A DNA stretch of 19,488 nt from a virus. Lineage: Duplodnaviria > Heunggongvirae > Uroviricota > Caudoviricetes. A model generated the notes under the pieces. It saw nothing but the letters and a program-made list of their open reading frames with translations. It searched no databases and was not told the DNA's origin. Where the stretch lies: positions 1 to 19,488 of the IMG/VR virus record IMGVR_UViG_3300036876_000145, one strand, 5' to 3'. The translations under genes and the position numbers were made by a program. Below, piece after piece: positions 1,008 through 18,838 of this stretch. Position 1 is the first letter of the stretch, and the number at the start of each line of letters is the position of its first letter.

Positions 1008-2924
1008 ATGGTAAGTAAATTTGAGTTATCGCCGTATTCTACATTCATTCATAAATCCCGTTACGCCCGCTGGTTAGAAGAAAAAACTCGAAGAGAAAAT
1101 TGGGATGAAACCGTAAATCGATATATTACTTATTTCGCTCATCGTATTCCGAAATCCGATCGTGAAGCAACATCCGCTGAAATTGAGAAAGCTATTTTTC
1201 ATATGGATGTCATGCCATCAATGCGAGCGATGATGACCGCAGGTCCCGCTCTGGACAAAGACAATGCTGCGGGTTTCAATTGTAGCTATTTAGCTGTAGA
1301 TGATCCTCGTGCTTTTGATGAAGCAATGTACCTCAGTATGTGCGGTACAGGTGTAGGATTTTCTGTTGAACGTCAGTATGTAAATCAACTTCCTATTATT
1401 GCTGAAAATTTCTATCCAGTAGATACCTGTATTAAAGTGCGTGATTCTAAAATTGGCTGGTCGAATGCGTTCCGACAATTGCTTAGTCTACTTTATTCAG
1501 GCTCTATTCCCACATGGGATATGAGTGCTGTTCGCCCAGCAGGATCACTTTTAAAAACCATGGGGGGTAGGTCCAGTGGTCCCGAACCCTTAGATCGTCT
1601 TTTCAAATTCTCCGTTAATCTCTTCCAAAAAGCCGCGGGGCGTAAACTAAATTCTATTGAATGTCACGATTTGATGTGTATGGTCGCAGATATTGTAGTT
1701 GTTGGAGGGGTGCGACGTAGCGCTATGTTGTCTCTTTCCAATCTCTCAGATGAGCGTATGCGTAACGCCAAAAACGGTCAATGGTGGGATGAGAAAAACC
1801 CTCAAGGGGCTCCCTGGCGTAGACTAGCAAACAATTCTGTAGCATACACAGAAAAACCAGAACCAGAAATTTTTATTCGAGAGTTTCTTACTTTGATAGA
1901 ATCAAAATCTGGAGAGCGGGGAATTTTTAATCGAGTATCCGCCGTCAATAGCGCAAAGAAAACAGGTCGCCGGAAATGGGAAGGTATAAATTTTGGTTCA
2001 AATCCCTGTGGTGAAATAAATTTACGCCCTAACCAATTTTGTAACCTATCCGAAGTAGTTATAAGACCTCACGATACTAAAGCTACCATTAAACGTAAAG
2101 TTCGCATCGCTGTAATCATCGGCTGCTTACAATCTACTTTAACTGATTTCCGATATCTTCGCAAAGAGTGGCAAAAAAATACTGAAGAAGAGCGTTTATT
2201 AGGGGTGAGTCTCACAGGAATTATGGACAATGTGATGATGTCCACTAATGGCGCGGATCTAGCAAAACTATTAGATGAACTTCGTGAATACACAATCGAG
2301 GTCGCTACAGAGTGGGCTGGGAAGCTGGGTATAAACGTCCCTACGGCGATTACTTGCATCAAACCATCTGGAACAGTCTCCCAACTCGTAAACTGCTCCC
2401 CAGGCATCCATAGCCGTTACTCGCGTTGGATTAAACGAGGTACGCAAGAAGATGCTAAGAGTCCAGTAAACACTTTTTTGAAATCTATAGGTTGGTTGTA
2501 TGAACCTGAATTGAACAAACCACAAGACTCTGATCTTTTCTTTTTCGCCTTAGAATCCCCAGATATTAGTATATGTAGGAATGATCGTAATGCTATCGAA
2601 CAATTAGAAATTTACAAAACTTACAAACTTCATTGGACTGAACATAATCCTAGCTGCACTGTGTATGTAAGAGAATCTGAATGGACGGATGTATTGGCGT
2701 GGATTTACAAACATTTCGATATTATTGGTGGGGTTAGTTTTTTACCCTACGATAACGGAATTTACCGTCAGGCCCCATTCACTGAAATTACCGAAGCTGA
2801 GTATGTGAAATTGAAAGAAAAAGAACCGGTAATCGACTGGTCGAAATTACCAGATTTTGAAAAAGAAGACATGACTACAGCTTCCCATGAAATGGCCTGC
2901 TCCGCTGGCGGATGCGAAGCCTAG
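1008..2924 (+). CDS. nrdJ: Class II (adenosylcobalamin-dependent) ribonucleotide reductase, monomeric type
   Basis: Motifs FNCSY, GGVRRSA, NPCGEI (thiyl-radical Cys), QFCNLSEV, TCIKPSGTVSQL and C-terminal CSAGGCE redox pair. 638 aa with no sign of an intein. Confidence 0.95.
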   Translation: MVSKFELSPYSTFIHKSRYARWLEEKTRRENWDETVNRYITYFAHRIPKSDREATSAEIEKAIFHMDVMPSMRAMMTAGPALDKDNAAGFNCSYLAVDDPRAFDEAMYLSMCGTGVGFSVERQYVNQLPIIAENFYPVDTCIKVRDSKIGWSNAFRQLLSLLYSGSIPTWDMSAVRPAGSLLKTMGGRSSGPEPLDRLFKFSVNLFQKAAGRKLNSIECHDLMCMVADIVVVGGVRRSAMLSLSNLSDERMRNAKNGQWWDEKNPQGAPWRRLANNSVAYTEKPEPEIFIREFLTLIESKSGERGIFNRVSAVNSAKKTGRRKWEGINFGSNPCGEINLRPNQFCNLSEVVIRPHDTKATIKRKVRIAVIIGCLQSTLTDFRYLRKEWQKNTEEERLLGVSLTGIMDNVMMSTNGADLAKLLDELREYTIEVATEWAGKLGINVPTAITCIKPSGTVSQLVNCSPGIHSRYSRWIKRGTQEDAKSPVNTFLKSIGWLYEPELNKPQDSDLFFFALESPDISICRNDRNAIEQLEIYKTYKLHWTEHNPSCTVYVRESEWTDVLAWIYKHFDIIGGVSFLPYDNGIYRQAPFTEITEAEYVKLKEKEPVIDWSKLPDFEKEDMTTASHEMACSAGGCEA

Positions 2925-2952
2925 AAATTTCCAAAAATGAGTATTGTACAGT

Positions 2953-3231
2953 ATGGAAATACATCTAGAATTTAAAATTACTCTCGCTAGCGGGGAAATC
3001 GTTACTCAAGATATTCAACTCCCCGCTGATCCAAATTACCCCATCGACAAACAAATGAAAGCTCTCATGCAAACCATGATAAACCAATATTCTACCGTGG
3101 GTATGCTACGAGAAGTTGAACCTGGGGTTTACAGGTTGCTTTGCCATAGCCAAATATATTGGGTAGAATGTTCTTTACCGAAGATTGTTTTGGCAAATGC
3201 TACGGAAGTACCGCAGGTGACTCTTGAATGA
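2953..3231 (+). CDS. Hypothetical protein (about 92 aa)
   Basis: The ORF track starts at TTG 2944; ATG 2953 is the more likely start. Fills the gap after nrdJ with phage-like codon use. Confidence 0.7.
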   Translation: MEIHLEFKITLASGEIVTQDIQLPADPNYPIDKQMKALMQTMINQYSTVGMLREVEPGVYRLLCHSQIYWVECSLPKIVLANATEVPQVTLE

Positions 3232-3403
3232 TTTCCTTTGGATTGAATGGAAGATAGTGATTTTATTGATAGCTTTTTTCTGGTTGTTTATGGCGATTCA
3301 TGAACAAAAAGCTTTATCAAAACCTATAGCTGTTCAAAATCCTTGGTGCGATGCCTCTCCAGTTGATGGGGCAGGAAAACCAGAAATTTGTGATCACCAA
3401 TGA
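3224..3403 (+). CDS. Small single-pass membrane protein (59 aa; not in the ORF track)
   Basis: TTG 3224 preceded by AGGTGA. Translation MNDFLWIEWKIVILLIAFFWLFMAIHEQKALSKPIAVQNPWCDASPVDGAGKPEICDHQ* has one hydrophobic helix and a Cys pair. Confidence 0.55.
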   Translation: MNDFLWIEWKIVILLIAFFWLFMAIHEQKALSKPIAVQNPWCDASPVDGAGKPEICDHQ

Positions 3404-15579: not shown

Positions 15580-16073
15580 TGGAACCCAATGTAGATAATA
15601 AGTGGAATACTGATGATGAAGCGTTAAAAGACAACCAGAAAAAATGGGATTTGAGATTTCTAGAGATGGCGAAACTAGTATCAACATGGAGTAAAGATAC
15701 TAGCACAAAATGTGGGGCCGTAATTGTAAGAGAAAATAAATCAGTAGCATCCGTTGGATTTAACGGATTCCCACAAAAAATGTCTGACGCGGATGAACTG
15801 TACAACAATCGAGAAGTGAAATATTCTAGGGTCATCCATGGTGAAGTAAACGCTCTACTTTTTGCTAATGAGCTGGTACAAGGTTGCACTTTATACACCA
15901 CCGGCCCTTGTTGTGATAGGTGCGCTGTGCAGATGATACAGGCCGGTATAACCAGATTTGTTGCTTATACAGCCCCGGAAATGGAACAACGATGGGGAGA
16001 AGCTTTTAAACGCACATTTAGCTACTATGAAGAGGCTGGGGTAGACCATAAAGAATATTCTGTGGTAGAATAG
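15579..16073 (+). CDS. dCMP deaminase
   Basis: WSKDTSTKCGAVI; GFNGFP; IHGEVNAL (HxE); PCCDRC Zn site; IQAGI. TAATG coupling with thyX. Confidence 0.92.
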   Translation: MEPNVDNKWNTDDEALKDNQKKWDLRFLEMAKLVSTWSKDTSTKCGAVIVRENKSVASVGFNGFPQKMSDADELYNNREVKYSRVIHGEVNALLFANELVQGCTLYTTGPCCDRCAVQMIQAGITRFVAYTAPEMEQRWGEAFKRTFSYYEEAGVDHKEYSVVE

Positions 16074-16086
16074 TTTATTGAGGATT

Positions 16087-17007
16087 ATGCCAACTAAACA
16101 AAGACCGTACAGAGTTGATTACTTCGACAAGCACGAGAGTCACATATACCCACCCAATATTAAATGGAACCAAGTTGATCATGATGCCAAGGCAGCGGTA
16201 CTTGTTCATTCGGTAATCGTGTGGACCGGAACGGCTAAAGACGCGAAACTTCTTCTTAGTGTGCCTGGTCGTTTTATTATTAGGGCTTATCGTTTTTACA
16301 AAAAACTCTCAAAGAGAAAAGTATGGAAGCCTTATACCCCAGCGTTAGCTAAGATCAAAGAATGTGGTTCATTTGCAGAGAAGTTCGACGAACTGTTCGC
16401 CTCCGACAGCGCATCTGCTGCACCTTTAACTGTTCGAGGTTTGGGATACGGAGATCAGGTAGAGATGAAATTATCTACCTTAGCGGATTGTCCAACTTGT
16501 CAAAGCACTGATAAAGATGTGCATCGTTGCACAGATGCTAGTTGCCTAGCAAGCCGAGAAGGAATATCAACTCATGAATTCACAGCTTGTACAGATTCTT
16601 GGCATGTCACTAACCCAGAAGCGCCTAAGCTGAATGACCCGGTAGAGGCGGAACGAGATATTGAAGCTGCAACTCATTATTGCCCGGTATGTGGTAGCAC
16701 CAGAAAAGAAGAACGCGGAGATATTCATTTTGTAAATGACGCCGGTAAATCTGAAATTGAATCATGCAAAAACCCTTGGCACGATAATGTATTTGATTGG
16801 ACAGATATATCTAAGTCTAAAATAGAAGATCTGTCTGACCCTCTGGAAAAGCAGGCATCGGATCAACCTCCCTGTAATCAACCAAGTTTCCAACTCGCAG
16901 ATGAAGGACAACAGCCCCGTGATCTCGGTCAAGTATTGGCTTGGGCTGCCATATTTAGTGGAGCTATAGTTATAGCCGCCACATTGATATACACCGCCAC
17001 TCGTTGA
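16087..17007 (+). CDS. Membrane-anchored hypothetical protein with two CPxC...CxxxWH Zn-like repeats (306 aa)
   Basis: GAGGA SD favours ATG 16087. CPTCQS...CTDSWH and CPVCGS...CKNPWH; C-terminal hydrophobic helix VLAWAAIFSGAIVIAATLIY. Confidence 0.75.
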   Translation: MPTKQRPYRVDYFDKHESHIYPPNIKWNQVDHDAKAAVLVHSVIVWTGTAKDAKLLLSVPGRFIIRAYRFYKKLSKRKVWKPYTPALAKIKECGSFAEKFDELFASDSASAAPLTVRGLGYGDQVEMKLSTLADCPTCQSTDKDVHRCTDASCLASREGISTHEFTACTDSWHVTNPEAPKLNDPVEAERDIEAATHYCPVCGSTRKEERGDIHFVNDAGKSEIESCKNPWHDNVFDWTDISKSKIEDLSDPLEKQASDQPPCNQPSFQLADEGQQPRDLGQVLAWAAIFSGAIVIAATLIYTATR

Positions 17008-17008
17008 T

Positions 17009-18131
17009 AAGCGAATACCTTATTAGGCGGTATTAGACACTATGCTACAAGTCCAACTCAAACTTCGACCTTGTAAGGCGCAAGAACAAATCTACGACCA
17101 GTGGCTCTATAATTTGGCTTCGGTTTACAACTTTGCCGTCCGCAAGATCGAGCTAAACGCCAAGGACAAAATCTACTTCTCCAAGAACGATTTTCAAAAC
17201 TTGTTGGCGAACCACGGAGAGAAGTTGGGTATACCGAGCCACACAATTCAGGGCGTGCTCTGCACCGTCCACGATGCGTGGAAGCGTTGCTTTAAGAAGA
17301 CCGCAGGCAAACCAAAACTCAAAGGGATGCGTAACAAGATGTCCAGCATCCCGTTCCCCGATCCCATCAAGGCACCAAAAGGCAACCGCATTACGCTTCC
17401 GGGTTTGGGCAGTGTCCGCTTTCACAAGCAGGAAATATCAGAGGGAAAGATCAAGTGTGGACGATTGATCAAGCGTGCGTCTGGATGGTATCTGTGTCTA
17501 TTCATAGACGCAGAGCCGAATCCGATTAAGCGTTTGGCGTTTGGGGCGATAGGCATTGATCCCGGATTTTCAAACCTGCTCACAACTTCGGATGGAGAGG
17601 TCATCGAACACCCACGGGAGTTAGAAGCGGCAGCAGAGCGTCTTGGACAAGCACAGCGTGGTCACAACAAACAGTTGGCAGCGAGGATTCAGGAGCGCAT
17701 CGCCAACCGCAAGAAAGATAGGAACCACAAGCTAACAACGAAGCTGGTATCTGAGAACGTGCTCATAGTTTGGAGCAAAGATGCAATCAAGGGAATCGCA
17801 AAACGATTCGGGAAGAGCGTGAGCAGTTCATCTCACGCACAAATTCGACAGATGTTGTCCTACAAGATGCCCAAAAGCGGTGGGACGTTTATCGAAGTTG
17901 CTTCCAAGTATTCCACCAAGACCTGTAACGAATGTGGTAATCCGACAGGACCCACAGGACTTGCAGAATTGTCGGTAAGGCAATGGCGATGTTCTGCTTG
18001 TGGAGCAGAGTACGACCGCGATGTCAATGCGGCTCGTAACACGCTATTCGCCGGGGCAGGATGTGCCCACGAGGAGTTGGCTTATGTCTAACTCGGACAG
18101 GAATCCCCAGAGTTTACTCTGGGAGCATCAA
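17009..18131 (+). mobile_element. Non-autonomous IS200/IS605-family (IS1341-type, tnpB-only) element
   Basis: Left: TTGAT at 17004-17008, then hairpin AATACC...GGTATT at 17014-17034. Right: GAAT (18101-18104), hairpin CCCAGAG-TTTA-CTCTGGG (18106-18123), terminal TCAA (18128-18131). No tnpA. The left boundary is inferred. Confidence 0.8.
17042..18091 (+). CDS. tnpB: TnpB RNA-guided endonuclease family protein (RuvC-II Glu apparently replaced)
   Basis: RuvC-I GIDPG (D173); Zn finger CNEC...CSAC; RuvC-III DRDVNAARN (D327); IVWSKD at the usual IxxEDL position. 349 aa. Confidence 0.93.
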   Translation: MLQVQLKLRPCKAQEQIYDQWLYNLASVYNFAVRKIELNAKDKIYFSKNDFQNLLANHGEKLGIPSHTIQGVLCTVHDAWKRCFKKTAGKPKLKGMRNKMSSIPFPDPIKAPKGNRITLPGLGSVRFHKQEISEGKIKCGRLIKRASGWYLCLFIDAEPNPIKRLAFGAIGIDPGFSNLLTTSDGEVIEHPRELEAAAERLGQAQRGHNKQLAARIQERIANRKKDRNHKLTTKLVSENVLIVWSKDAIKGIAKRFGKSVSSSSHAQIRQMLSYKMPKSGGTFIEVASKYSTKTCNECGNPTGPTGLAELSVRQWRCSACGAEYDRDVNAARNTLFAGAGCAHEELAYV

Positions 18132-18150
18132 TACCAACAATTAGCGTCCC
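17950..18150 (+). ncRNA. Predicted TnpB omegaRNA (right-end RNA) with guide from the flank; 5' boundary approximate
   Basis: Established IS200/IS605 architecture: scaffold overlaps the 3' end of tnpB and the right-end hairpin, and the guide is the flank after TCAA (TACCAACAATTAGCGT..., from 18132). Not directly visible as a gene. Confidence 0.5.
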
Positions 18151-18506
18151 GCACTGAAAGTACAGATTTTTCAACCATAGCTAAGCGTCTTTCTAATGAA
18201 AGAACGATTCGTCTTCTTCACGGTTCTTTAGGCATTCAAACTGAAGGTGGAGAAATAGCCGACGCTTTAAAGAAGCATATATTTTACGGCACCCCCCTTG
18301 ACATAGTAAATATTGCAGAAGAGGTCGGTGACTGCCTGTGGTATTTGGCTATATTCAGCAATGAAATCGGTATTGATTTTCCAACCATCATGGAAAACAA
18401 TATTGCTAAACTGAAAGCACGATATGGGGAAAAATTCTCCGAAGATCGGGCAGTGAATCGAGACTTGAAAACTGAGCGAAAAATCCTTGAAAATATAAAA
18501 ATATAA
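18084..18506 (+). CDS. MazG-like all-alpha nucleotide pyrophosphohydrolase; first 16 codons come from the IS right end
   Basis: YQQLASRT; LGIQTEGGEIADALKKHIFYG; EEVGDCLWYLA; NIAKLKARY. GAGGAG SD at 18071-18076 before ATG 18084. Confidence 0.85.
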   Translation: MSNSDRNPQSLLWEHQYQQLASRTESTDFSTIAKRLSNERTIRLLHGSLGIQTEGGEIADALKKHIFYGTPLDIVNIAEEVGDCLWYLAIFSNEIGIDFPTIMENNIAKLKARYGEKFSEDRAVNRDLKTERKILENIKI

Positions 18507-18637
18507 CTCTTTGTCCCGGTTGCAAGCATCCAATCGATAGACACACTGATACGGGTTGTATGGACAGGGTTGATGCCGCTGGAGATGTTGACTGGTGTGA
18601 GTGTTAGGGAAAAAGATTTTCGTGTTAGGAGTTTTTG

Positions 18638-18838
18638 ATGAAAGCTCGTGTGAAAGTTACCCCCGCTCGGATGGAACGCCTAATGTCCGGTAAACCCTTA
18701 GTTTACAATGTTCCAGCGGGGGTGACTGAGCTTGAACTTGTCCTGGATGATGGCGTTTTCGCCAAATTTGATAAGCTATTCTCAAAAACCTGGAATAAAG
18801 TGATGGCGAAAGCTGAAAAAACTATATCGGATCCTTAA
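18638..18838 (+). CDS. Hypothetical protein (66 aa)
   Basis: AGGAG SD; ATG 18638. Confidence 0.7.
   Translation: MKARVKVTPARMERLMSGKPLVYNVPAGVTELELVLDDGVFAKFDKLFSKTWNKVMAKAEKTISDP

What the first reader, a model, noticed from the sequence alone, without database searches (positions are those of the whole stretch)
18071..18150. IS right end supplies the RBS, start codon and first 16 codons of the downstream MazG-like gene
Seen: GAGGAG (18071-18076) and ATG (18084) lie inside the tnpB 3' end. The frame reads MSNSDRNPQSLLWEHQ through the right-end hairpin and TCAA into YQQLASRTES, the typical MazG-like N-terminus. Joining TTGAT (17008) to 18132 gives TGA TAT ACA CCG CCA CTC GTT GAT|TAC CAA: D-Y-Q-Q fits the family, but there is no ATG/GTG/TTG in frame, and none in the next 70 codons. 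About 60 nt therefore serve as tnpB coding sequence, omegaRNA/right end and translation start of a neighbour. Inference: the element rescues the gene it interrupts without splicing (unlike IStrons) and cannot be excised without silencing it. Alternatively, recombination between two IS copies joined unrelated flanks.
Basis: partly seen in the sequence, partly recalled or inferred. Interest (0 to 1): 0.75.

Follow-up and report, generated by a model that had tools for sequence, protein, structure and literature searches.

The report
Transposon end restarts a phage gene
A small mobile element in a giant peat phage has cut off the start of a nucleotide-cleaning gene (MazG) but carries its own ribosome site and ATG in the right reading frame, and this "replacement start" is a built-in feature of the whole element family, not a one-off accident.

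Summary
GAGGAG (18071-76) and ATG (18084) lie in the last codons of tnpB. The frame runs without a stop through the right-end hairpin and TCAA (18128-31) into MazG. MazG has no other usable start: the next in-frame one is TTG at codon 71.

The left end is truncated: about 40 nt, including the left hairpin, are missing. TTGAT is not the family's target.

The family inserts right after TGAA. This is shown by two filled-versus-empty comparisons and by IS608-type guide/cleavage-site covariation. The site is often (A/G/T)TGAA, where NTG is the right-hand gene's start codon.

The right end carries a clade-conserved SD-ATG whose frame ends ...ATC AA|, the same phase as ATG AA|. It therefore restarts the severed gene. 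Examples are RF2 (prfB), an MFS transporter and a CoxS-like gene in an Acidobacteriaceae MAG, and many phage genes.

In this window the element landed about five codons inside MazG, out of phase. One extra C in the right-end C-run (18105-08) puts the exit ATG in MazG's frame. The junction is identical in all 10 contig places read.

Translation from 18084 is inferred, not shown. No publication was found. This scan had already noted the principle on other DNA (e1-5619130).

The parts
16078..17007 (+). Upstream 309-aa ORF of no known family, with a hydrophobic C-terminus. Its stop TGA (17005-17007) lies at the deletion junction with the IS remnant.
   Evidence: The junction is identical in 5 sibling contigs.
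17008..17041 (+). Remnant of the IS left end: only the part 3' of the left hairpin (TAAGCGAATACC..GGTATTAGACA). The TGAA target, the guide CAAT and the hairpin are missing.
   Evidence: Alignment A2 with L021, L009, L016, L010 and the mini element of the same genome.
17042..18091 (+). tnpB, 349 aa. RuvC-I D173 and RuvC-III D327 are kept. Ser stands at the RuvC-II Glu position in all 9 aligned family members.
   Evidence: Pfam PF07282 and PF01385. ISDra2 TnpB 8BF8/8EXA/8H1J at E=1e-18. Alignment A1.
18071..18076 (+). Shine-Dalgarno-like GAGGAG, 7 nt before the exit ATG.
   Evidence: An SD-like motif lies 4-16 nt upstream of the exit ATG in 28 of 29 family insertions.
18084..18131 (+). Exit ORF: ATG plus 15 codons (MSNSDRNPQSLLWEHQ). 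It overlaps the tnpB stop (ATGTCTAA) and runs through the RE to its last base.
   Evidence: ATG is an invariant column in alignment A3 although the overlapping TnpB C-terminal residues vary.
18105..18108 (+). C-run with one C more than in the closest relative (L021/L126: CCC). This shifts the exit frame from the family's usual phase 2 to phase 0, which is MazG's frame.
   Evidence: CCCC is present in all 10 sibling places.
18106..18123 (+). Right-end subterminal hairpin CCCAGAGT-TT-ACTCTGGG, preceded by the guide GAAT (18101-18104).
   Evidence: The layout matches IS608 (PMC3201880).
18128..18131 (+). TCAA, the right cleavage site and last bases of the element.
   Evidence: All copies diverge immediately after it.
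18132..18506 (+). MazG-like NTP pyrophosphohydrolase lacking its own first ~5 codons. Conserved motifs are intact (RTES, LLHG, ExGE, KKHIFYG, EEVGD, LWY, NIAKL).
   Evidence: Pfam PF03819. Alignments with 15 or more homologues. Nearest homologues are 76% and 72% identical.
18132..18151 (+). Flank that would be read as the guide of the element's omega-RNA (inferred by analogy with ISDra2/ISGst). It is at the same time MazG codons 17-23 of the chimera.
   Evidence: Inference from the family's mechanism (Meers et al., 10.1101/2023.03.14.532601). Not tested; there is no Rfam hit.

Best explanation
Bases 17008-18131 are a left-end-truncated, tnpB-only member of an IS608-like IS200/IS605 lineage.

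How the lineage works:
- It inserts on one strand immediately 3' of TGAA and ends in TCAA.
- Its last ~60 nt form a conserved 'exit cassette': an SD-like GAGG, an ATG overlapping the tnpB stop, and a stop-free frame through the right-end hairpin that normally ends ...ATC AA|.
- Surviving insertions are mostly at (A/G/T)TGAA, where NTG is the start codon of the gene on the right. TGA is often the stop of the gene on the left.
- The exit frame therefore has the same phase as the severed ATG AA|. The gene is re-started from inside the element with 15-19 extra residues and no splicing.

What happened in this window:
- The element landed about five codons inside MazG, after ..NNT GAA, the Glu before the conserved Tyr. 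That is out of phase.
- One extra C in the right-end C-run brings the exit ATG into MazG's frame. MazG is then made as a chimera in which 16 IS-encoded residues replace the native M-x-x-x-E.
- A deletion later removed the left hairpin together with MazG's orphaned start. This immobilised the element.

Shown: the anatomy, the family conservation, the target site, the phase rule, and the persistence of the junction. Inferred: that ribosomes start at 18084, the order of events, and the native first five codons.
For: 1. Anatomy and lack of any other start.

2. Family ends. The LE is NTGAA|C..(18-20 nt)..CAAT-hairpin and the RE is GAAT-hairpin-AGCATCAA|. The LE guide CAAT versus the RE guide GAAT covaries with TGAA versus TCAA. 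The spacings match IS608, where TTAC lies 19 nt 5' of the left palindrome and TCAA lies 10 nt 3' of the right one (PMC3201880).

3. Filled versus empty sites.
- prfB in MAG G001 carries the IS. The ortholog in G024 reads ..CATCCTCATGAA|TCAAGAG.., with the lnt stop TGA overlapping the prfB ATG. Only a junction after TGAA keeps RF2 in frame up to its CTT TGA C frameshift site. G001 has a single RF2 gene.
- Window 3224-3228 (TTGAA|T, where TTG starts ORF 3224-3403) is empty here. In sibling contig L156 it is filled by an IS with an intact LE.

4. Reconstructed native N-termini begin at the target NTG: MNGRIFFWSLTSALAGFLFGFD (MFS), MKKQLSELRVNG (CoxS-like), MKRILLSWSSGKDS (PP-loop ATPase), MKKILFLLALLF and MKKLILSVILILAC (signal peptides). 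One site has AAGGAG-N6-ATGAA on its left flank.

5. Statistics.
- About 9 of 14 insertions sit on a start-type codon opening a 75-aa or longer ORF, against 12% of TGAA sites in this phage (p about 8e-6).
- 32 of 33 unique insertions have the exit ATG.
- Exit frames run 60 or more codons past the RE in 15 of 36 cases, against 10 of 63 for the other frames (Fisher p=0.0075, Mann-Whitney p=0.0009).
- ATG-to-end distances are 44, 47, 50, 53, 56 and 59 nt, so the indels come in threes.

6. Exceptions fit their own neighbours. WIN1 (48 nt, extra C) is in frame with MazG. L117 has a C-run of 4 against 5 in L116 and is in phase 1, in frame with a 518-codon ORF.

7. MazG homologues start four to seven codons before the Tyr, and about 20 of the roughly 25 read have M-x3-(E/D/Q)-Y. 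GAA fits the TGAA target.

8. The 140-aa chimera is on record for about 28 contigs from JGI, ENA and Logan, of which 23 were read. The SD-ATG-RE(CCCC)-MazG junction is identical in all 10 places read, while the tnpB body is recombined or nested in three of them.
Against: - There is no expression, Ribo-seq or proteomic evidence.
- MazG is probably dispensable for a phage, so an inactive relic cannot be excluded. The sibling contigs are too similar (99-100%) to test purifying selection.
- No IS-free allele of this phage's mazG was found: the closest homologue is 76% identical. The five lost codons and the TGAA target here are inferred.
- The predicted RNA fold pairs part of the SD (GGAGUU with AACUC), and the RE hairpin lies 22 nt after the ATG.
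- The same RNA is expected to be bound by TnpB as omega-RNA, which would compete with ribosomes.
- The enrichment of in-frame neighbours could reflect survivorship alone rather than an evolved function.
- The insertions are phylogenetically related, so the p-values are approximate.
- The MAG loci could contain assembly errors.
Confidence: 0.72

Rival explanations
1. By-product plus survivorship. The ATG and the stop-free frame in the right end are kept only because that DNA encodes the TnpB C-terminus, the omega-RNA scaffold and the TnpA hairpin. In-frame neighbours are simply the insertions that selection did not remove. The element has no evolved 'rescue' function, although MazG may still use the ATG.
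For: The ~60 nt carry at least three other functions. The conserved stem GGGGCAGGATGTGCCC and the hairpin are obviously structural. About a third of insertions are not in frame with anything long (L012/L106, L028, L138, L132).
Against: ATG is invariant while the overlapping TnpB codons change (TAT-G, AAT-G, ATA-TG). Length changes between the ATG and the end come in multiples of three. The two out-of-phase copies match their own downstream genes. Sister clades at 57-59% TnpB identity (L140, L143) have no start codon near the tnpB stop.
Confidence: 0.2
2. MazG here is a dead, 5'-truncated relic. The in-frame ATG is a 1-in-3 coincidence and no chimeric protein is made.
For: There is no expression data. 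The left side of the locus has suffered a deletion. tnpB bodies are being recombined in siblings, and one sibling has lost 14.8 kb.
Against: The 124-codon MazG part has no stop or frameshift and keeps every conserved motif. The only nucleotide difference from the closest relative's right end that affects phase is exactly the +1 needed. The junction is invariant in all 10 places read, while the flanking tnpB varies.
Confidence: 0.1
3. MazG is translated, but from another in-frame start inside tnpB (GTG 18000, ATG 18021 or 18027, GTG 18063), or only by ribosomes that terminate at the tnpB TAA and re-initiate, rather than by independent SD-directed initiation at 18084.
For: The frame is open from 17979. 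One database gene call uses a longer 174-aa form (P0122). ATGTCTAA is a classic stop/start overlap.
Against: None of the upstream starts has an SD. They are not conserved features of the family, whereas the SD-ATG at the tnpB stop is. Re-initiation would still use ATG 18084, so it is a variant of the main explanation.
Confidence: 0.08
4. One reading: a complete element inserted precisely after TTGAT (17008) into a gene that then, and before, had no start of its own.
For: TTGAT is the ISDra2 target, and the join gives D-Y-Q-Q.
Against: The family target is TGAA and the family LE has about 40 more nt with a hairpin that is absent here. Two empty sites confirm TGAA|. MazG homologues start four to seven codons before the Tyr, most with M-x3-(E/D/Q)-Y.
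Confidence: 0.02

Closest known systems
IS608 (Helicobacter pylori) and ISDra2; IS200/IS605 family, peel-and-paste single-strand transposition with TnpB/omega-RNA homing
   Same: TnpB with RuvC and a zinc finger. Subterminal hairpins. A right end with guide GAAT and cleavage site TCAA, identical to IS608. Insertion 3' of a tetranucleotide recognised by a 4-nt guide 5' of the left hairpin, about 19 nt away. No target duplication. Transposase-less and core-deleted (PATE-like) derivatives exist.
   Different: The target is TGAA (guide CAAT), not TTAC or TTGAT. The right end carries a conserved SD-ATG reading out of the element in phase with ATG AA|. Nothing of the kind was found in the papers searched. 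The phage copies have no TnpA. The window copy has lost its left hairpin. RuvC-II Glu is replaced by Ser in the whole lineage.
IStrons (group I intron fused to an IS200/IS605 or IS607 element; PMC4227781, 10.1101/2023.11.20.567912)
   Same: A TnpB-carrying element that makes its own insertion into genes harmless. There is a built-in conflict between host-gene rescue and guide-RNA production from the same transcript end.
   Different: Rescue here is at the level of translation initiation (a new start and an N-terminal extension), not RNA splicing. There is no intron: no Rfam match in 16500-18700. It works only at or near the 5' end of a gene.
Outward-reading promoters and hybrid fusions of classical IS elements (IS1, IS2, IS10 and others; from general knowledge)
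   Same: An IS end supplies an expression signal to the neighbouring gene.
   Different: Those supply transcription signals or accidental fusions. Here a translation start in a fixed phase is matched to the element's own target sequence.
Free-standing homing endonuclease genes and TnpB 'cassettes' in phage operons
   Same: Selfish nuclease genes wedged between or into phage genes with start/stop overlaps that preserve expression of neighbours.
   Different: These are different TnpB lineages. In those notes the restart signal was judged not to be a general family feature. Here it is clade-wide and phase-locked to the target.

Membership tests
IS200/IS605 (IS608-like, tnpB-only derivative) | TnpB/OrfB protein with RuvC and zinc-finger (TNB) domains | tested here: met
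   PF07282 at 4e-21 and PF01385 at 1e-7. ISDra2 TnpB structures at E about 1e-18.
IS200/IS605 (IS608-like, tnpB-only derivative) | Right end: subterminal hairpin, a 4-nt guide 5' of it, and a cleavage tetranucleotide a few nt 3' of it as the last bases of the element | tested here: met
   GAAT-CCCAGAGT..ACTCTGGG-AGCA-TCAA|. All copies diverge after TCAA. The layout is as in PMC3201880.
IS200/IS605 (IS608-like, tnpB-only derivative) | Left end: hairpin with guide, and the target tetranucleotide about 19 nt upstream | tested here: not met
   Met in relatives and in the mini element of the same genome. In the window copy the hairpin, guide and target are deleted. It is a truncated, immobile member.
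IS200/IS605 (IS608-like, tnpB-only derivative) | Insertion 3' of a fixed short target without duplication, shown by empty-site comparison | tested here: met
   For the family: prfB locus G001 versus G024, and window 3224-3228 versus L156. For this copy's own insertion no empty site was found.
IS200/IS605 (IS608-like, tnpB-only derivative) | Y1 (HUH) transposase TnpA in the element or genome | tested here: not met
   No PF01797 in the 102-kb record (about 30% complete). It is present in MAGs G001 and G002, including decayed copies inside related elements.
IS200/IS605 (IS608-like, tnpB-only derivative) | omega-RNA made from the tnpB 3' end plus the RE, with its guide from the flank | not testable with these tools
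   No Rfam family matched. A conserved stem and hairpin are present. No RNA data.
IStron | Group I intron ribozyme at the 5' side of the element, allowing splicing | tested here: not met
   No Rfam match at E<=1 in 16500-18700 on either strand. Only 34 nt lie between the left junction and the tnpB ATG.
MazG-type NTP pyrophosphohydrolase (PF03819) | MazG domain with ExxE and EExxD acidic motifs | tested here: met
   PF03819 at 4e-8. The motifs align with 15 homologues. 923 relatives at E<=1e-10.
TldR (nuclease-dead TnpB-derived repressors) | Loss of RuvC catalytic residues, and a guide matching a promoter elsewhere rather than the element's own flank | tested here: inconclusive
   The RuvC-II Glu position is Ser in all 9 aligned members. 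D173, D327 and an invariant D247 are kept. The lineage is multi-copy with intact ends, so it is presumably mobile. Guide targets were not examined.

The most novel reading that the evidence does not exclude
This TnpB/IS605 clade has evolved a translation 'exit cassette' that is phase-locked to its own target sequence (ATG AA| versus ..ATC AA|). This lets it settle on start codons and ATGA gene junctions, even of essential genes such as prfB and in tightly packed phage genomes, without harming the host. The phase can be re-tuned by slippage in the right-end C-run when it lands out of frame, as at MazG here.
Probability: 0.5. Interest if true: 0.8.

Novelty: new variant of a known kind. Interest (0 to 1): 0.72.

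Why it matters
IS200/IS605-TnpB elements are among the most abundant genes known and are the ancestors of Cas12. How they persist in gene-dense genomes is an open question. So far it has been answered only by IStron splicing and TnpB homing.

A right end that replaces the start codon it severs would be a third, purely translational way of making an insertion harmless. It would explain why these elements sit flush against phage genes and can occupy the start of an essential gene (RF2).

It also has practical consequences:
- Gene callers will mis-annotate the N-termini of such genes.
- Proteins acquire 15-19 element-encoded residues.
- The same ~60 nt must serve TnpB coding, guide-RNA scaffold, transposase hairpin and mRNA leader. 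That is a testable conflict between guide-RNA production and host-gene expression.

Tried and rejected
- **Phage GenBank collection.** A DNA search with 16000-18700 found no match.
- **IMG/VR with the upstream 309-aa protein.** No match, so no IS-free sibling could be found that way.
- **Metagenome scan with MazG.** The best hit was 60% identical. The protein database gave 76%. No empty allele of this phage was found.
- **L156 left flank.** I first read it (..GTG ACT CTT GAA|) as MazG's native start (M-T-L-E-Y-Q-Q). I rejected this because the flank is 100% identical to window 3102-3225, so L156 is an IS-to-IS deletion variant.
- **Junction position.** I first placed the left junction after TGAAC. 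I rejected this because only TGAA| keeps RF2 and the other genes in frame, and the empty sites show a different base after TGAA.
- **Automatic hairpin-based RE detection.** It failed on many loci and was replaced by a motif rule.
- **Search of 201 genomes of the order of G001.** This TnpB was found only in G001 at E<=1e-60.
- **Literature.** Seven searches found no description of a start-codon-replacing IS end. PMC3119063 describes PATEs and core deletions only.
- **Unpublished genomes.** G204 and G220, flagged, were not used for any claim.
Full report
**Observation**

The window is the first 19.5 kb of a 102-kb IMG/VR virus record, estimated about 30% complete. It is a huge phage from peat.

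- tnpB occupies 17042-18091 (349 aa; Pfam TNB and OrfB_IS605; ISDra2 TnpB structures at E about 1e-18).
- GAGGAG is at 18071-18076. ATG is at 18084 and overlaps the tnpB stop as ATGTCTAA.
- That frame runs through the hairpin CCCAGAGT/ACTCTGGG (18106-18123) and the terminal TCAA (18128-18131) into a MazG domain protein ending at 18506.
- After 18132 the first canonical in-frame start is TTG at codon 71, beyond the first catalytic motif.
- Of the in-frame starts further upstream, none has a ribosome-binding site.

**Right end**

The same genome holds two more copies of the right end (RE).
- One is a ~260-nt mini element at 91.4-91.7 kb. It has a left end, 38 tnpB codons fused to the last 13 codons, and a right end.
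- The other is a 5'-truncated tnpB at 64 kb.

Both diverge from the window copy exactly after TCAA. Fifteen IMG/VR loci and five loci in Acidobacteriaceae/Terriglobales MAGs carry TnpB at 71-88% identity with the same end.

In all relatives with a complete element, the left end (LE) reads NTGAA|C, then 18-20 nt, then CAAT, then the hairpin CCCAGAC..GTCTGGG, then T(T/A)AGCGA.

In the window, similarity to the closest relative (L021, 88% TnpB identity) begins only at TAAGCGAAT (17008/9). The target, the guide and the hairpin are absent.

The left junction is therefore a deletion junction, and TTGAT is a coincidence. The same truncated junction occurs in five sibling contigs.

**Target site**

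By the IS608 rule, the cleavage tetranucleotide pairs with four bases 5' of the hairpin foot. In IS608, TTAC lies 19 nt upstream at the LE and TCAA 10 nt downstream at the RE (PMC3201880). Here the RE has GAAT with TCAA, and the LE has CAAT with TGAA. That is a G/C swap on both partners.

Two filled-versus-empty comparisons confirm cleavage right after TGAA.

(a) In MAG G001 an element of a second tnpB subfamily with the same ends sits between lnt and prfB.
- The ortholog in G024 (Lnt 86% identical) reads ..CATCCTCATGAA|TCAAGAG... The lnt stop TGA overlaps the prfB ATG.
- In G001 only a junction after TGAA keeps RF2 (MNQEFEQEY.. against MNQELEQEY..) in frame up to its CTT TGA C frameshift site.
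- G001 has one RF2 gene.

(b) Window 3224-3228 is TTGAA|T. TTG starts ORF 3224-3403, and the preceding ORF stops at 3229-3231.
- Sibling contig L156 has an intact left end inserted exactly there.

**The exit cassette is a family trait**

- In every close relative an ATG lies at the tnpB stop, preceded by GAGG. Its frame is open to the last base of the element.
- ATG-to-end distances are 44, 47, 50, 53, 56 and 59 nt, all 2 mod 3. The frame therefore ends ..ATC AA|, the same phase as a severed ATG AA|.
- ATG is an invariant alignment column, although the overlapping TnpB codons differ (TAT-G, AAT-G, ATA-TG).
- In a wider sample (49 IMG/VR loci at 54-88% identity; 33 unique insertions with a recognisable RE), 32 have such an ATG. 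25 of 36 exit frames are in phase 2. An SD-like motif precedes the ATG in 28 of 29.
- Exit frames continue 60 or more codons beyond the element in 15 of 36 cases, against 10 of 63 for the other frames (Fisher p=0.0075; Mann-Whitney p=0.0009).
- More distant loci (L140, L143; 58-59% identity) lack any start near the tnpB stop. The feature is therefore clade-specific.

**What the cassette does at other sites**

Reconstructed empty sites start good proteins at the target NTG:
- an MFS transporter (MNGRIFFWSLTSALAGFLFGFD);
- a CoxS-like 2Fe-2S protein (MKKQLSELRVNG);
- a PP-loop ATPase (MKRILLSWSSGKDS);
- RF2;
- two signal peptides;
- a site with AAGGAG-N6-ATGAA on the left flank;
- in this phage, a 77-aa ORF (MNNDPKLV..) after the mini element.

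About 9 of 14 insertions with both ends intact sit on a start-type codon that opens an ORF of 75 aa or more. For all TGAA sites of this phage the figure is 12%, and 2% if it must be the first start.

**The window's own case**

MazG is in phase 0, not phase 2. Compared with the closest relative, the window's right end has one extra C (CCCC at 18105-18108 against CCC). This is exactly the +1 needed.

A parallel exists elsewhere. L116 and L117 differ by one C in the same run. L117, in phase 1, is in frame with a 518-codon ORF.

In the roughly 25 MazG homologues whose N-termini I read, the start lies four to seven codons before the conserved Tyr. About 20 of them read M-x-x-x-(E/D/Q)-Y. The nearest are MDPKDYQ, (M)TPKEYQELASRTES and MVNTEYQELASRTES.

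The element therefore most likely inserted after ..NNT GAA, between Glu5 and Tyr6. That is a TGAA that is not a start codon. The fourth C then rescued the frame. The order of these events, and of the left-end deletion, is inferred.

**Persistence**

- The exact 140-aa chimera is on record for about 28 contigs from JGI, ENA and Logan, of which 23 were read.
- In all 10 places read, the SD-ATG-RE(CCCC)-MazG junction is identical, while the tnpB body is not.
- Two contigs have a second element, with a mini-element-type RE, abutting the last ~160 nt of the old tnpB.
- One contig (L156) has a hybrid tnpB.
- One contig has a 6-nt deletion.

The module that feeds MazG is the stable part of the locus.

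**Caveats**

- The predicted fold partly pairs the SD.
- TnpB binding to the same RNA as omega-RNA would compete with translation. This conflict is analogous to the one described for IStrons (10.1101/2023.11.20.567912).
- Enrichment of in-frame neighbours may partly be survivorship.
- The insertions are related, so the p-values are rough.

**Comparison and novelty**

The element is an IS608-like IS200/IS605 member by TnpB, right end, target logic and empty sites. This particular copy fails the left-end criterion, and the phage record has no TnpA.

It is not an IStron. I found no paper describing an IS end that replaces the start codon it severs.

This scan had already noted the same principle on another genome (e1-5619130) and this very junction on another record (e1-1603126). 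I reached it from the data before reading those notes, and I tested it with new material.

Noticed in passing
window 3221-3231; locus L156 1-200: TTGAA at 3224-3228 (TTG = start of ORF 3224-3403; the upstream ORF stops at TGA 3229-3231) is an empty target here. In sibling contig L156 it carries an IS with an intact left end. That IS is fused through a hybrid tnpB to the MazG junction, which implies a ~14.8-kb IS-to-IS deletion (3229 to about 18060) that removes thyX, dCMP deaminase and other genes.
   Followed up: yes
L153 and L155, about 2700-3000 (siblings of window 17900-18090): A second tnpB element, whose right end resembles that of this genome's mini element, ends TCAA| directly against the last ~160 nt of the resident tnpB (..|TTGTCGGTAAGG). 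This is a nested or recombinant IS. The old SD-ATG-RE still feeds MazG.
   Followed up: partly
G000 91,440-91,697 (L002 1320-1579): A PATE-like mini element: left hairpin, 38 tnpB codons fused to the last 13 codons, and a right end. It sits on ATGAA, where TGA stops the upstream small ORF and ATG would start a 77-aa ORF of unknown family. That ORF now reads from the element's ATG (MCSRSGIPDFKSGSIN|NDPKLV..).
   Followed up: partly
G000 64,030-64,771 (L003 791-1531): A 5'-truncated tnpB of a second subfamily (229 aa) with the same right end. Its exit ATG is in frame with the methionine aminopeptidase gene, which also has its own AAGGAG-ATG 8 codons further on.
   Followed up: partly
window 17774-17776 (TnpB Ser245): The RuvC-II catalytic Glu position is Ser (IVWSKD or FIAFSKD) in all 9 aligned family members, while D173, D327 and D247 are invariant. 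The site is either rearranged or nuclease-dead. Another first-reader note covers this (e1-5433689).
   Followed up: partly
L011 versus L012 (same left flank, same element): The 22-32 nt directly after TCAA differ completely between otherwise identical loci, then converge again at TAATGGCTACC. This is a variable stretch exactly where the omega-RNA guide would be read, and it is unexplained.
   Followed up: no
G001:C37 about 91,295-93,010 (L045): A 1.7-kb element with decayed tnpA fragments sits on the start codon of the only RF2 gene of an Acidobacteriaceae MAG, between lnt and prfB.
   Followed up: yes
L116-L122, L145, upstream of tnpB: More distant relatives (about 65% identity) have no IS605-type left hairpin. 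They are preceded by a conserved gene end (..IKQYIENQK*), possibly a different transposase partner (IS607-like?). They still carry the exit ATG.
   Followed up: no
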